Assembly: GCF_024502345.1 (NCBI RefSeq) | Contig: NZ_JALDNN010000001.1 | Source of the DNA: Escherichia coli | GTDB lineage: Bacteria; Pseudomonadota; Gammaproteobacteria; Enterobacterales; Enterobacteriaceae | Length of the DNA stretch: 64,000 nucleotides | Strand: one strand, 5' to 3' | In this document: piece after piece, positions 55,201-61,200 of the stretch | Position numbering within the stretch: position 1 is the stretch's first letter | Layout: every line of letters begins with the position of its first letter | Program-made: the position numbers

Positions 55201-58200
55201 TCGCCGTTGTGGCTGTAGTGATACCAGTAGAGAAGAATCGAGCTAAGTGACGCCAGCAATTTGTCGGCAATATCCCGCGCGCCAGAGACGGTATGCCCCT
55301 CTTTTTCTGGCAGCGTGCAGCCGAGCGCGGAAACGCCGGTGCGCATAACATCCATCGGGTGTGACGCCGCCGGTAAGGCTTCCAGCACGGTACGCACGTT
55401 AGCCGGTAAACCGCGCAGGGCTTTCAGTTTCGTTTTGTAAGCGGCGAGTTCGTCACGGGTCGGCAGTTTGCCGTGGATCAGCAGATGCGCCACTTCTTCA
55501 AATTCGCAATGTTCCGCCAGATCAAGAATATCGTAACCACGGTAATGCAAGTCATTGCCACTTTTACCCACGGTGCAGAGCGCCGTATTGCCCGCCGGAA
55601 CGCCAGAAAGTGCTACCGATTTTTTCGGTTTAATGACATGGGTACTGTTTTGCAGGATCGTTGTGTCGCTCATATTGTCCTCGTCATTGTTATCATTTGT
55701 AGGGTCGAGATTGTTGTCGGATGCGACGCCATGCGTCTTATCCGACCTACAGTTCAGTACACCCGTAGGCCTGATAAGTCGCGTCAGCGGCGCATCAGGC
55801 ATCGGTTGTCGAATACAACCAACGGGCGTTTTTTATTTCACCTGGCTACGGGCAAACAGGTCGTCGAGCTTCTCTTCGTACTGGTAGTAGTTGATGCTTT
55901 CGTACAGCTCGTTGCGGGTTTGCATAGTGTCGATGACACTTTTCTGCGTGCCTTCCTGACGCAGGACGTTGTAGACATGTTCAGCGGCGCGGTTCATGGC
56001 GCGGAACGCTGAAAGCGGGTACAGCGCCATTGCGACATGGGCGCTGCGTAATTCGTCGGTGGTAAACAGCGGCGTGGCACCAAATTCGGTAATGTTGGCG
56101 AGGATTGGCACCTGCACCGCATCGGCAAACTGGCGGTACATGGCGAGTTCGGTAATCGCCTCCGGGAACAACATCTCGGCACCCGCTTCAACATAGGCCT
56201 GCGCACGCTCGATCGCCGCATCCAGCCCCTCTACCGCCAGCGCATCGGTGCGCGCCATGATCACAAAATCAGGATCGGTTTTCGCATCCACCGCTGCACG
56301 GATCCGATCCACCATCTCCTCTTTCGAGACGATCGCTTTGTTCGGGCGATGACCGCAACGTTTCGCGCCAACCTGATCTTCAATATGCAATCCTGCCGCA
56401 CCGGCTTTAATCATCGATTTCACAGTGCGCGCCACGTTAAAAGCCGAAGATCCAAAACCGATATCCGCATCCACCAGCAGCGGCAGCGAGCAGACGTCGG
56501 TGATACGGCGAATGTCAGTCAGCACATCATCAAGAGTAGAAATACCGAGATCGGGCAGCCCCAGCGAACCTGCCGCCACACCACCGCCGGAGAGATAAAT
56601 CGCCTGATATCCGGCACGCTGCGCCAGCAGCGCATGGTTAGCGTTGATGGTGCCGACAATCTGCAATGGATTTTCTTTAGTGAGTGCAGCGCGAAACGCT
56701 TTACCTGGAGAGTGTAGAGACATAGCCCATCCTTTGTTATCAACTTGTTATTTACGTTGATAAAGACAAAGCAAGGGGTGTGCCACAATTGCCTGAATAA
56801 AATTAAATGCTTAATTTCAATTTGTTAGAGATAAACCCATGAATTAATCCGCAAATATGCGTTTCAGTTAACGTTTCAGGCAATGTTTCACTGCGTTTCA
56901 TTGCAACAATTATGAAACAAGACTAAACCCACTATTCGGTTTCTTAACTTTGCGGTGCGCTATGGCACATCCACCACGGCTGAATGACGACAAACCGGTT
57001 ATCTGGACGGTATCTGTAACGCGGCTGTTCGAGCTGTTTCGCGATATCAGTCTCGAGTTTGATCACCTGGCGAACATTACCCCTATCCAGCTTGGCGGTG
57101 ATGCTGCCAACTTACTGATTTAGTGTATGATGGTGTTTTTGAGGTGCTCCAGTGGCTTCTGTTTCTATCAGCTGTCCCTCCTGTTCAGCTACTGACGGGG
57201 TGGTGCGTAACGGCAAAAGCACCGCCGGACATCAGCGCTATCTCTGCTCTCACTGCCGTAAAACATGGCAACTGCAGTTCACTTACACCGCTTCTCAACC
57301 CGGTACGCACCAGAAAATCATTGATATGGCCATGAATGGCGTTGGATGCCGGGCAACCGCCCGCATTATGGGCGTTGGCCTCAACACGATTTTCCGCCAT
57401 TTAAAAAACTCAGGCCGCAGTCGGTAACCTCGCGCATACAGCCGGGCAGTGACGTCATCGTCTGCGCGGAAATGGACGAACAGTGGGGATACGTCGGGGC
57501 TAAATCGCGCCAGCGCTGGCTGTTTTACGCGTATGACAGGCTCCGGAAGACGGTTGTTGCGCACGTATTCGGTGAACGCACTATGGCGACGCTGGGGCGT
57601 CTTATGAGCCTGCTGTCACCCTTTGACGTGGTGATATGGATGACGGATGGCTGGCCGCTGTATGAATCCCGCCTGAAGGGAAAGCTGCACGTAATCAGCA
57701 AGCGATATACGCAGCGAATTGAGCGGCATAACCTGAATCTGAGGCAGCACCTGGCACGGCTGGGACGGAAGTCGCTGTCGTTCTCAAAATCGGTGGAGCT
57801 GCATGACAAAGTCATCGGGCATTATCTGAACATAAAACACTATCAATAAGTTGGAGTCATTACCCGCTTTGTCGATCAGATCTCCGGCGGGCAGCAGCAG
57901 CGCGTGGCGCTGGCCCGCGCGCTGATCCTCAAGCCGAAAGTGCTGCTGTTTGATGAGCCGTTGAGTAACCTCGACGCCAACCTGCGTCGCAGCATGCGCG
58001 ACAAGATCCGCGAGTTGCAAAAGCAGTTTGATATCACCTCGCTGTACGTCACCCACGATCAGAGCGAAGCCTTTGCGGTTTCTGATACTGTGCTGGTGAT
58101 GAACAAGGGACACATCATGCAGATCGGCTCACCGCAGGATCTTTACCGCCAGCCCGCCTCCCGCTTTATGGCGAGCTTTATGGGCGATGCCAACCTGTTC

Positions 58201-61200
58201 CCGGCAACCTTCAGCGACGGATACGTTGATATCTACGGCTATCATCTGCCGCGCCCGCTGCACTTTGGTACACAGGGTGAAGGGATGGTCGGTGTGCGCC
58301 CGGAAGCGATCACGCTCAGCGATCGCGGCGAAGAGAGCCAGCGCTGCGTGATCCGCCATGTCGCCTATATGGGGCCGCAGTATGAAGTGACGGTGGAATG
58401 GCACGGGCAGGAGATATTATTGCAGGTCAACGCTACGCGTCTGCAACCGGACGTCGGCGAGCAGTATTATCTTGAAATCCATCCGTACGGCATGTTTGTT
58501 CTGGCGGATGCGGCATAACGTTTTGTGGTTTTGTAGGCCGGATAAGGCGCTTGTGCCGCCATCCGGCAATGCCTGATGCGCTGCGCTTATCAGGCCTACA
58601 ATGAACGATGTAGACCCGATAAACCCTCAGCTTCGCGCTTTTAACGCGGCGATATCCGCAGGCGTGGTGCGACAGCACCCGCCAATCAACCGTGCGCCAG
58701 CGGCCTGCCACTGCGGCAGATAATCCGCCAGCTGCGCGCAATGTTCACCGTGATGATGCCAGGTTTTGCTCACGGCATCGTAATGCTCGCCCGAGTTCGG
58801 ATACACCACCAGCGGCAGCACCGTTAAACCGTGTAAATGCTGCAACGCAGCGGTGGTGTTTTCCAGCGCAATACAGTTAATGCCTAGCGCCACCACCTGC
58901 GGATAACCCGCCAGCAACGCAACCACGTCACGCAGCGGCGTACCGTCGCTCAGGTGTTCGCTGTCGCGCAGGGTAAATGAGAACCACGCCCGCGCACGCG
59001 GATATGCGGTCAACAGCTCGGCCAACGCCTCAATCTCGGAAAAATTCGGCAGGGTTTCGCAGGCCAGCAGATCGGCCCCGGCATCCAGCAAGGCTTCCAC
59101 GCGCGGGCGATGAAACGCCTGAAATGCCTCAACGCTACAATGATAATCGCCACGGTATTCAGAGCCATCCGCCAGATACGCGCCGTAAGGCCCGACGGAT
59201 CCCGCCACCAGAAGCGTTCCCGCCTGCGGGTTCTCTGCCAGATACGCTTCACGGGCTTTACGCGCCAGCTCCACGCTTTTGCCAATCAGCGCTTTCGACT
59301 GCGCTTCATCCAGACCTCGCGCGGCGAAGCCCGCCGGCGTCGCCTGATAGCTGGCAGTGATCGCGCATTGCGCCCCCGCCCGGTAGTAATCAAGATGCAC
59401 TTCGCGGATAAGCTCCGGGTTTTCTACCAGCACTTTGGCTGACCACAGGCTGTCGGCTAAGTTACACCCTCGCGCTTCCAGCTCCGTCGCCATCGCGCCA
59501 TCCAGCAGCAGGATATCCTGTTTATCAAGAAGAGCGCGTAACGGATTATTCTGCGACATGTTCTGGCTCCTGTTTTGCGTTTCGGGGTTGAGTAAGGAAA
59601 TAAGCACCATAGCACAACGCAACAAACGGTAACCCGCACCACAACGCAATTCTCTGCGCTGGATCGAATGCCAGCCCAACACAGGCCACCAGGCACAGCA
59701 CAAAACCTAATACTGGCACCAGCGGATACCACGGCGCGCGATAATGTAATTCACTCAATGCCTTACCTTGTTGCAGATGACGGCGACGAAAAACAAAATG
59801 CGAGGCGCAGATACTCAGCCACACCGCTACCACCGCAAACCCGGAGATTGCCGACAGCGCAACAAATACCGTGTCCGGGGCCACCACGCTGGAAAACAGC
59901 GCCAGCACACCACCGAGCATACTGACCGACAGCGCCGTCAGTGGCACGCCGTTTTTCGTTACTCGCGCAAAACAGGCCGGTAGCGTACGTTCATTCGACA
60001 ACGACCACAGCATGCGCCCGGAGGCATATAACCCGGAGTTCGCTGCAGAAAGAATAGCCGTCAGGATCACGAAGTTAAAAATATCAGCGGCGTACGGGAT
60101 CCCTACTTTCTCAAATACCAGCACAAACGGGCTTTTCTCCACGCCCGCCTGCTGCATCGGGATCAGCGCTGCCAGCACAAACACGGTGCCGATAAAGAAA
60201 ATAATCAGTCGCGCGATGGTAGTACGAATCGCTACCGGGATAACTTTGCGCGGGTTTTCCGTTTCACCGGCGGCAATGCCGATAAGCTCGGTACCCGAAA
60301 AAGCAAAGTTCACTGCCACCATAGTCATCAAAATCGGTAAGCCACCGTGCGGGAACCAGCCTTCTGCCGTGATATTACTCAGCCCCGGCGCGGGCGAGCC
60401 ATCCTGCATCGGAATAAAGCCGAAAATCGCCGCCCCACCGAGGATGATAAAGGCGATGATAGTGACCACTTTGACCAGCGAGAACCAGAACTCCCCTTCG
60501 GCAAAAAAGCGCGTGGAGATAACATTCAGACCAAAAATAATCGCGCAGAACACCACGCACCAGACCCATACCGGCACCTGTGGAAACCAGTACTGCATAC
60601 AGAATCCAGCGGCGGTAAAGCTCGAACCCAGCGCCACGGTCCAGGTCAGCCAGTAAAGCCAGGCCACGGTATACCCGGTAGCCGGACCAAGATAGCGCGC
60701 GGCATAAACGTGAAACGCTCCGGTCTCCGGCATCGCGACCGACAGCTCGCCCAGACACTGCATAACCAGCCAGACCACCAGCGCACCAATCAGATAGGCC
60801 AGCAGCGTTCCCGCCGCTCCAGTGGTGGAAATGATGTACCCGGTATTGAAGAATAATCCTGTGCCAATCACGCCGCCCAAGGAAAGCATAATCAGGTGAC
60901 GCGTTTTCATTGTGCGCTTCAGTGGCGCATTTTGTTGTGTTGTTTGCATATAACCTTCTAAACGCATGGACATCTAAACATCCAAAGAAGGTTTGTTATA
61001 CCGCGTTTGTTAACAGAATGCAAAGTCAACCCTGCACCAGACGCAGATGCCCGCGCCGGGCGCTTAATAGCGGGTGGGGATTAATAATCAGATACAAAAA
61101 GGGCCGCCAGCTCATAACGCCTCCGTTGCCATGTTTTATCTAAACTTTGGCACCACAGTTGACTGACGGCGTTAACCCGGAAGTGGGAATCAAATCTCCC

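What the first reader, a model, noticed from the sequence alone, without database searches (positions are those of the whole stretch)
56962..58518. IS1 joins a prpR remnant to a truncated afuC without target-site duplication
IS1 (57097..57864) is flanked on one side by only the first 45 codons of prpR and on the other by the 3' part of an afuC paralogue that starts mid-gene in frame. The flanking 9-mers are not direct repeats, which argues against simple insertion and for an IS1-mediated deletion or rearrangement. Relative to recalled K-12 order this junction brings the mmuPM-afuC neighbourhood next to prp, and the intervening K-12 genes are absent here.
Basis: partly seen in the sequence, partly recalled or inferred. 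Interest (0 to 1): 0.6.

Follow-up and report, generated by a model that had tools for sequence, protein, structure and literature searches.

The report
IS1-anchored deletion truncating prpR and afuC
A single intact IS1 insertion sequence sits where about 70 kb (in E. coli K-12 terms) has been lost between the propionate regulator gene prpR and the transporter gene afuC; this is an ordinary IS1-mediated deletion, with one minor curiosity: the same prpR breakpoint has arisen at least twice independently.

Summary
prpR stops after codon 45 (56962-57096). An intact 768-bp IS1 follows (57097-57864). afuC resumes in frame at codon 132 (57865-58518). The flanking 9-mers differ (CAGCTTGGC and CGCTTTGTC), so there is no target-site duplication.

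- The IS1 and its afuC junction are base-identical in nine complete E. coli genomes and many draft contigs.
- In those genomes the other IS1 flank differs: lactate permease, yahM, mrkB', ykgB or an ABC permease. The backbone flanks (ykgB, yahM, the permease next to yahK) lie in the K-12 ykg-to-prpR interval and are collinear with K-12 order.
- This is a nested deletion series anchored on one resident IS1 at the edge of the thrW (CP4-6-like) island.
- A sister assembly that is 99.9% identical still has prpR-yahONMLK intact, so the truncation is recent.
- prpBCDE is intact but has lost its activator.

One step (intramolecular IS1 transposition) and two steps (local hop, then IS1 x IS1 recombination) cannot be told apart from the sequence.

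A new detail is that the identical prpR|IS1 junction occurs on at least two divergent prpR alleles, which suggests an IS1 target hot spot.

Overall this is a known kind of event and of low interest.

The parts
51093..56723 (-). prpE, prpD, prpC and prpB (2-methylcitrate cycle operon). All four ORFs are full length, but they are now separated from a functional activator gene.
   Evidence: ORF lengths of 628, 483, 389 (inside a 432-aa ORF) and 296 aa. Gene identities come from alignment to annotated G3/10. The region is 99.89% identical to sister contig L019.
56724..56961 (.). prpB-prpR divergent intergenic (promoter) region, intact.
   Evidence: Aligns without gaps to the same region in loci with intact prpR.
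56962..57096 (+). prpR remnant, codons 1-45 of 528. Reading on into IS1 gives a 53-aa fusion ORF (56962-57123).
   Evidence: Translation and alignment with intact PrpR. The 53-aa fusion ORF is on record in 8 other contigs.
57097..57864 (+). Complete IS1 (IS1B-like). IRL 57097-57119, insA 57152-57427, A6C frameshift motif 57403-57409, insB' frame 57346-57849, IRR 57842-57864.
   Evidence: Sequence reading and ORFs. It is 768/768 identical to the copies annotated 'IS1-like element IS1B family transposase, programmed frameshift' in G3/10, AH04 and CX12, and differs at 2 positions from K-12 IS1B.
57865..58518 (+). afuC (fbpC) remnant, codons 132-348 plus stop. It lacks the N-terminal third, including Walker A, and has no start codon or promoter of its own.
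   Evidence: Offset of 393 nt, frame 0, in K-12 afuC. NCBIfam NF008513 positions 132-350 of 351, below the cut-off. Annotated as an N-terminally truncated pseudogene in G3/10, AH04 and CX12.
58627..60949 (-). mmuM (58627-59559) and mmuP (59546-60949), intact. They belong to the horizontally shared island to the right of IS1.
   Evidence: 99.97-99.99% identical to AH04 and G3/10; coordinates transferred from their annotation.
61224..64000 (-). Second, island-borne mhp cluster: mhpT2 61224-62435, mhpE2 62505-63518, and mhpF2 cut by the window end. It is 80-83% identical to the native mhp cluster at 29130-37090.
   Evidence: Direct-repeat families D4-D7, blast against G3/10, and the NCBIfam MhpT equivalog at 602 bits.

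Best explanation
The junction is the scar of a deletion anchored on a resident IS1 at the eroded edge of the thrW-associated (CP4-6-like) genomic island.

Before the event, IS1 already abutted afuC codon 132, a junction shared with other E. coli. To its left lay the rest of the island and/or chromosomal backbone, running up to yahK-yahO-prpR.

The route I commit to is one step. IS1 transposase joined the IRL end of this same IS1 to a target inside prpR on the same DNA molecule (intramolecular, 'abortive' or replicative transposition). Everything between IRL and prpR nt 136 was lost. IS1, its old right flank and a new left flank remained, so there is no target-site duplication.

Consequences:
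- PrpR, the sigma-54 activator of prpBCDE, is reduced to 45 codons. The intact prpBCDE operon should therefore be uninducible.
- The afuC stub is dead.

Shown: the anatomy, the shared right junction with variable left flanks, the intact sister state, and the collinearity.
Inferred: that the final step was one-step transposition rather than insertion followed by recombination (see the first rival), and the loss of growth on propionate.

Taken together, the two IS1-deletion routes have about 0.9 probability. The figure below is for the one-step route alone.
For: - No duplication: CAGCTTGGC | IS1 | CGCTTTGTC.
- The IS1 is intact, with IRs, insA, insB' and the A6C motif, so it is potentially active.
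- The right junction and a 768/768-identical IS1 occur in G3/10, AH04, AH02, CT01, CX12 and CX08. The same junction with a 761-bp IS1 variant occurs in LHM10-1, A30 and CP52E. That is 9 of 5426 complete genomes. The truncated 204-aa ORF is on record in 256 blocks of the public collection.
- Left flanks differ: lactate permease next to dld-ykgEFG, yahM, mrkB', DUF417/ykgB, ABC permease', and prpR'. The backbone flanks lie in descending K-12 order relative to the island.
- The IRR side shows a nested series too. The IS1 lies 753 bp further out in K-12 (within afuB') and 566 bp further out in ST540, and at further offsets in other strains.
- Sister contig L019 differs at 7 of 6179 positions and keeps prpR and yahO-K intact.
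- In G3/10 the island runs proBA-thrW-int ... 'mhpA2-mhpT2-mmuPM-'afuC-IS1-yahM. IS1 is therefore the island's inner edge, facing the backbone that has been eaten away.
- The junction is real. It is present in two other assemblies and in several independent read sets.
- The one-ended mechanism is the published model for IS1 deletions (PMC10569738).
Against: - The sequence cannot distinguish one step from two steps, because the product is identical.
- Relatives show local IS1 hops in direct orientation that would be intermediates of the two-step route: CP52E has a perfect 9-bp duplication, and A30 has two copies.
- The DNA to the right of IS1 is 99.97-99.99% identical to strains whose backbone is only 96.5-98.4% identical to this one. 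The island, with its IS1, was therefore acquired horizontally. The state of this lineage just before the deletion is not observed.
- The rest of the genome is unavailable, so a displaced 'prpR cannot be excluded.
Confidence: 0.5

Rival explanations
1. Two-step IS1 deletion. A copy of IS1 first inserted into prpR at nt 135/136 as an ordinary insertion with a 9-bp duplication, in the same orientation as the island IS1. RecA-dependent recombination between the two 768-bp direct repeats then deleted everything in between and left one hybrid IS1.
For: - The product is identical to what is seen.
- Intermediates of exactly this type exist in relatives. CP52E has an extra 768-bp IS1 with a perfect CATCCATTA duplication 1.7 kb to the left of the resident IS1, in direct orientation. 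A30 has two IS1 copies about 760 bp apart.
- In the long-term evolution experiment, about 70% of rearrangements arose by recombination between IS copies (PMC4173774).
- The prpR site is used repeatedly, as expected for an insertion hot spot.
Against: - No simple prpR::IS1 insertion or reciprocal junction (IS1 end + CAGCTTGGC + TTYGARAA) was found in 5426 complete E. coli genomes, the GTDB representative genomes or the JGI metagenomes. The last two collections also lack the forward junction, so they say little.
- The IS1 here is 768/768 identical to the island copy of other strains. This is expected on either route and does not discriminate.
Confidence: 0.38
2. No deletion, but insertion of a mobile IS1-bounded segment (composite transposon, cointegrate or translocatable circle carrying 'afuC-mmuPM-mhp2) into prpR. 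The rest of prpR and the yah genes would then lie beyond a second IS1 outside the window.
For: - The DNA to the right of IS1 is nearly identical in unrelated backbones.
- The IS1-afuB'-afuC module also occurs on plasmids and next to plasmid genes in ST540.
- The identity break coincides exactly with the left end of IS1.
Against: - The order and orientation of both flanks match K-12 collinearity, as do the other backbone left flanks (yahM, ykgB, and the ABC permease next to yahK).
- In G3/10 the far end of the same island is thrW-proBA, leaving no place for a displaced 'prpR.
- No reciprocal junction was found anywhere that was searched.
Confidence: 0.07
3. Assembly artefact: two unrelated IS1 flanks joined through a collapsed repeat.
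For: IS1 is a multicopy repeat. One 1.5-kb metagenome contig (L042) joins the same prpR' flank through IS1 to a plasmid chemoreceptor gene, and may itself be such a chimera.
Against: - The prpR'|IS1 half-junction is reproduced in independent assemblies and read sets: L021, L022, L038, L039 and L044.
- The IS1|'afuC half-junction is reproduced in 9 complete genomes.
- The combination is the collinear one.
- What is not independently confirmed is that both halves belong to one and the same IS1 copy in this strain.
Confidence: 0.04

Closest known systems
IS1-mediated adjacent ('one-ended') deletions. Classical work on the gal region by Reif and Saedler 1975 and on replicative deletions by Turlan and Chandler 1995 is cited from memory. 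A recent example is the nfsB-region deletions in PMC10569738.
   Same: IS1 is retained at the junction, one original flank is kept, a variable amount of neighbouring DNA is lost, there is no target-site duplication, and the size is tens of kb. PMC10569738 describes the same model: a nick at one IS1 end is ligated to a target on the same molecule.
   Different: This is a natural, fixed event at a genomic-island boundary rather than a laboratory-selected one. The mechanism is inferred from comparative anatomy and was not observed.
Deletions by recombination between IS copies, as in the long-term evolution experiment (PMC4173774).
   Same: A new IS copy lands near a resident one, and homologous recombination then removes the interval, leaving one IS and no duplication. 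Intermediates of this kind are seen in CP52E and A30.
   Different: No double-IS1 intermediate is known for the prpR site itself.
IS1B at afuB' in the CP4-6 cryptic prophage of E. coli K-12 (afuC b0262, afuB' b0263, insAB; b-numbers from memory).
   Same: It is the same IS1 lineage (2 mismatches in 768), in the same orientation, in the same island module mmuP-mmuM-afuC.
   Different: In K-12 the IS1 lies 753 bp further out, so afuC is intact and about 350 bp of afuB remains, and its other flank is an IS30 fragment next to yagB. Here both sides have been eroded further: into afuC on one side and as far as prpR on the other.
IS1 insertion hot spots (Galas, Calos and Miller 1980; Zerbib et al. 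1985; Gamas et al. 1987; all cited from memory).
   Same: The identical nucleotide position in prpR is joined to IRL on at least two divergent prpR alleles.
   Different: No hot spot in prpR has been described in the literature I could search. The cause of the preference was not established here.

Membership tests
IS1 insertion sequence | About 768 bp with imperfect terminal inverted repeats of about 23 bp | tested here: met
   57097-57864 is 768 bp. IRL GGTGATGCTGCCAACTTACTGAT and the reverse complement of the right end GGTAATGACTCCAACTTATTGAT match at 18 of 23 positions.
IS1 insertion sequence | insA and insB' frames joined by a -1 frameshift at an A6C motif | tested here: met
   ORFs 57152-57427 (91 aa) and 57346-57849 (167 aa). 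AAAAAAC lies at 57403-57409. The identical sequence is annotated as an IS1B-family transposase with programmed frameshift in G3/10, AH04 and CX12.
IS1 insertion sequence | An 8-9 bp target-site duplication flanking a simple insertion | tested here: not met
   CAGCTTGGC versus CGCTTTGTC. This is a feature of the insertion event, not of the element. Its absence argues for a secondary rearrangement. A simple insertion with a perfect 9-bp duplication is seen for another copy in CP52E.
IS-anchored (adjacent) deletion | The IS is retained with one conserved flank and a variable other flank across related genomes | tested here: met
   The IS1|'afuC junction is identical in 9 complete genomes and in the window, with 6 different left flanks.
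IS-anchored (adjacent) deletion | The flanks are collinear with an undeleted reference and the intervening DNA is absent | tested here: met
   Order and orientation match K-12 W3110 with 277634-347532 missing. Sister L019 carries the undeleted prpR-yahK side. Absence was verified for the window only.
IS-anchored (adjacent) deletion | The deleted DNA is absent from the whole genome, that is, not translocated or inverted | not testable with these tools
   Only the 64-kb window is available. The source genome is not in the complete E. coli set or the GTDB representatives.
Composite transposon or cointegrate | A second IS1 at the far end, with the matching 9-bp repeat next to the rest of prpR | tested here: inconclusive
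   There is no second IS1 in the window. No reciprocal junction was found in the GTDB representatives or JGI metagenomes, but those collections also lack the forward junction.

The most novel reading that the evidence does not exclude
The bond between prpR nt 135 and 136 is a genuine, sequence-directed IS1 target hot spot, and natural E. coli lineages repeatedly lose the propionate regulator through it.

The identical prpR|IRL junction occurs on allele W (the window, L021, L022, L038, L039, L044). It also occurs on a clearly different allele (L037, L040, L041) that differs at 5 positions within the last 175 bp, including 10 bp from the junction. Both alleles also exist with intact prpR. Recombination cannot have carried the junction from one allele to the other.

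If the convergence were driven by selection (for example relief from toxic 2-methylcitrate-cycle intermediates in a propionate-rich gut) rather than by target preference alone, it would be a small case of parallel regulatory loss in the wild.
Probability: 0.6. Interest if true: 0.35.

Novelty: new member of a known kind. Interest (0 to 1): 0.22.

Why it matters
The practical value is for annotation and phenotype prediction.
- This lineage should be unable to induce prpBCDE, so growth on propionate through the 2-methylcitrate cycle is probably lost even though the operon looks intact.
- It lacks the roughly 70 kb that K-12 carries between afuC and prpR.
- The afuC stub should be called a pseudogene.

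More generally, the locus is a clean natural example of one resident IS1 progressively eroding both of its flanks at a genomic-island boundary. Intermediates are preserved in different strains, and one deletion endpoint is reused. None of this changes what is known about IS1.

Tried and rejected
- **Hidden target-site duplication.** Boundaries were checked against seven other IS1 copies and none shows a duplication at this locus.
- **Simple insertion into prpR.** Rejected, because the right flank is afuC, not prpR.
- **Inversion-type intramolecular transposition.** Rejected, because IS1 keeps its ancestral right flank and both flanks are collinear.
- **Reciprocal junction** (IS1 end + CAGCTTGGC + TTYGARAA). 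There were 0 hits in the GTDB representative genomes and in the JGI metagenomes. The forward junction is also absent there, so these scans are uninformative about the source genome.
- **Exact-protein look-ups.**
  - PrpB and YahL are too conserved to pick out the lineage.
  - PrpD and the 53-aa PrpR'-IS1 fusion ORF worked.
  - A PrpR product starting at V50, which I expected from a reciprocal junction, only found prpR genes with other 5' defects and no IS1.
- **Extending sister contig L019 towards the island.** This failed, so the pre-deletion state of the interval in this lineage is unknown beyond yahK.
- **L042.** It shows a different right flank (a plasmid chemoreceptor gene), but it is a 1.5-kb metagenome contig that crosses a repeat, so I do not rely on it.
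- **L043 and L042 junction haplotypes.** These could be k-mer chimeras, because 35 invariant bases separate their distinguishing sites from the junction. Only the T(-10) haplotype is counted as independent.
- **A CATTACC motif** (the last 7 nt of IRR) 15 bp upstream of the prpR breakpoint, and ATTACC near the G3/10 breakpoint. These were noted post hoc, are not consistent across the other flanks, and were not pursued.
- **Literature.** No paper in the library links prpR and IS1 in a relevant way.
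Full report
**1. What is in the sequence.**

Reading 56700-58700 shows a complete IS1 at 57097-57864.
- It is 768 bp long. IRL is GGTGATGCTGCCAACTTACTGAT, and the right end is ...AAGTTGGAGTCATTACC.
- It has the insA and insB' frames and the A6C frameshift motif at 57403-57409.
- It is the only IS1 sequence in the window.

To its left, 56962-57096 is exactly the first 45 codons of prpR. These are divergent from an intact prpBCDE operon at 51093-56723.

To its right, 57865-58518 is afuC from nt 394 (codon 132, in frame) to its stop. 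This remnant matches only positions 132-350 of the NCBIfam FbpC/AfuC model and scores below the cut-off.

The 9-mers next to IS1 are CAGCTTGGC and CGCTTTGTC, so there is no target-site duplication.

The stub is the orthologue of K-12 afuC; the IS1-to-afuC stretch (window 57565-58164) is 99.8% identical to K-12 strains. The paralogue is the intact gene at 24801-25859 (83-88% identical).

**2. Context.**

On the + strand the window reads as follows:
- phoA ... tauDCBA;
- an island with uhpABC-like genes and an intact afuABC (17803-25926);
- frmRAB, yaiL, mhpT-A, mhpR, lacI, lacZYA, cynXST, cynR, codAB, prpEDCB;
- prpR', IS1, 'afuC;
- mmuM, mmuP, and a second mhp cluster (mhpT2, mhpE2 and onwards).

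Apart from the junction, this is K-12 order read backwards.

In K-12 W3110 the retained part of afuC ends at 277633 and prpR codon 45 ends at 347533. The K-12 equivalent of what is missing is therefore 277634-347532, about 69.9 kb.

In strain G3/10 the same right-hand block is the inner end of the thrW-integrated island. The order there is proBA - thrW - integrase - ... - heat-resistance locus - IS elements - 'mhpA2...mhpT2 - mmuPM - 'afuC - IS1 - yahM.

**3. Comparative evidence for an IS1-anchored deletion.**

*The shared right junction.*
- The IS1 (768/768 identical) and its junction with afuC nt 394 are identical in G3/10, AH04 and CX12.
- A junction-specific 120-bp query finds the junction in one piece in 9 of 5426 complete E. 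coli genomes.
- The truncated 204-aa ORF is on record in 256 blocks of the public collection.

*The variable left flank.* The other side of this IS1 differs from genome to genome:

| Left flank | Genomes or contigs |
|---|---|
| lactate permease next to dld-ykgEFG | AH04, LHM10-1, L031 |
| yahM | G3/10, L027 |
| truncated mrkB | CX12, CX08 |
| DUF417/ykgB next to ykgCDEFG-betA | L028 |
| truncated sugar-ABC permease beside yahK, with a second IS1 | A30 |
| prpR' | the window |

None has a duplication. The backbone flanks (ykgB, yahM, the permease next to yahK) lie in the K-12 interval between the island and prpR, oriented as a deletion predicts.

*Erosion on the IRR side.* In K-12 the IS1 lies 753 bp further out, in afuB', and in ST540 566 bp further out. 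Other spacings occur as well.

This is the signature of one resident IS1 that has repeatedly removed DNA on either side.

**4. The truncation is recent and real.**

No complete E. coli genome has the prpR'|IS1 junction. Exact-protein look-ups did find the lineage.
- Contig L019 (GCA_019583735.1) is 99.85-99.89% identical to window 42831-57096. It has intact prpR, yahO, yahN, yahM, yahL and yahK.
- L022 (GCA_050022275.1; 1 mismatch in 14151), L021 (an ENA metagenome), and the contigs L038, L039 (Logan) and L044 (ENA) carry the same junction. Each stops inside IS1, as short-read assemblies do.

The junction is therefore not peculiar to one assembly. prpBCDE has had no time to decay.

**5. Horizontal history.**

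- To the left of IS1 the window is 96.5-98.4% identical to G3/10. The best identity to any complete genome is 97.6% over codA-prpR' and 99.3% over 1-14000.
- To the right of IS1 it is 99.97-99.99% identical to AH04 and G3/10.

The island, already carrying the IS1|'afuC junction, was therefore exchanged between lineages. The identity break lies exactly at the left end of IS1.

This fits acquisition of the island followed by an IS1 deletion that removed whatever lay to the left of IS1, including any recombination joint. It also keeps alive the minority reading that an IS1-bounded segment inserted into prpR. Against that reading stand the collinearity of this flank and the other backbone flanks, and the thrW far end of the island in G3/10.

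**6. Mechanism.**

Two routes give the identical product.
- **(a) One step.** The IRL end of the resident IS1 is joined to a target in prpR on the same molecule, and the interval is lost. This is the published model for IS1 deletions (PMC10569738).
- **(b) Two steps.** A new IS1 copy inserts in prpR in direct orientation, and recombination between the two copies follows. This is how most rearrangements arose in the long-term evolution experiment (PMC4173774).

Intermediates of route (b) exist at this very locus in relatives. CP52E has an extra IS1 with a perfect CATCCATTA duplication 1.7 kb from the resident copy, and A30 has two copies.

I give (a) 0.50 and (b) 0.38. Insertion of a mobile segment gets 0.07 and an assembly artefact 0.04.

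**7.

The 53-aa PrpR'-IS1 fusion ORF is on record in 8 further contigs. Their flanks fall into several prpR alleles.
- L037, L040 and L041 differ from the window at 5 positions within the last 175 bp, the nearest only 10 bp from the junction.
- Each allele also exists with intact prpR: L019 for the window allele, and L008-L015, L017, L025 and L026 for the L037 allele over the 372 bp compared.

Homologous recombination cannot move a junction between alleles that differ 10 bp from it. The same junction therefore arose at least twice, which points to a preferred IS1 target.

L042 and L043 add two more haplotypes, but they could be k-mer chimeras. L042 also shows a plasmid chemoreceptor gene on the far side of IS1, which I treat as a possible metagenome misassembly.

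I found no literature on this site.

**8. Consequences (inferred).**

PrpR is the sigma-54-dependent activator of prpBCDE (established knowledge). With 45 of its 528 codons left, the operon should be silent. The afuC stub lacks Walker A and a start codon, and the intact afuABC paralogue elsewhere in the window is unaffected. mmuPM remain intact.

**9. Verdict.**

This is a new instance of a long-known kind of event, and of low general interest. The recurrent breakpoint is a modest curiosity.

Noticed in passing
window 56962-57123; loci L037, L040, L041, L043, L042: The identical prpR codon-45|IS1 IRL junction occurs on at least two, and possibly up to five, different prpR alleles in public read sets and metagenomes. 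This implies independent events at one nucleotide, that is, a candidate IS1 hot spot.
   Followed up: partly
window 17803-25926: An island lies between tauA and frmR, where G3/10 has yaiP, an acetyltransferase gene and yaiO. It carries uhpA-, uhpB- and uhpC-like regulators followed by a complete afuA-afuB-afuC ABC transporter. This afuC is the true paralogue (83-88% identical) of the truncated copy.
   Followed up: partly
window 24801-37090 versus 57865-64000: There is paralogous synteny at 80-88% nucleotide identity: afuC - (frmRAB, yaiL) - mhpT - mhpEFDCBA in the backbone, and 'afuC - (mmuM, mmuP) - mhpT2 - mhpE2... in the island. The island module looks like the homologous chromosomal region of another enterobacterial lineage captured in the thrW island.
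   Followed up: no
window 57097 (left end of IS1): Identity to G3/10 and AH04 jumps from about 96.7% to 99.97-99.99% exactly at the left end of IS1. The island plus IS1 is horizontally shared among divergent E. coli backbones.
   Followed up: partly
L050 (A30) 1764-4049; L051 (CP52E) 845-4049; L030 (LHM10-1): In A30 and CP52E the resident IS1 at the same afuC junction measures 761 bp and is annotated as frameshifted; LHM10-1 gives the same shortened junction match (query 12-120) and probably carries the same variant. CP52E also has a second, full-length IS1 with a perfect 9-bp duplication (CATCCATTA) upstream of lldP. A30 has two 761-bp copies about 760 bp apart.
   Followed up: partly
window 50730-51073 and 30435-30786: Tandem arrays of about 94-bp units (between prpE and codB) and about 101-bp units (between mhpT and mhpE). 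Copy number differs among the related loci; short-read contigs L037-L039 also begin in or next to the first array.
   Followed up: no
L006 (ST540) 1-10166; plasmid hits (e.g. NZ_CP076694.1, NZ_CP128580.1): The IS1-afuB'-afuC-mmuMP module also occurs on large plasmids. In ST540 it lies next to plasmid replication (RepB) and toxin-antitoxin genes in the chromosome, so the module moves by IS-mediated routes as well as with the thrW island.
   Followed up: no
L046-L049: Fourteen contigs carry a prpR gene call that starts at V50 with prpB directly upstream and no IS1. This suggests other, unexamined lesions in the first 49 codons of prpR in natural strains.
   Followed up: no
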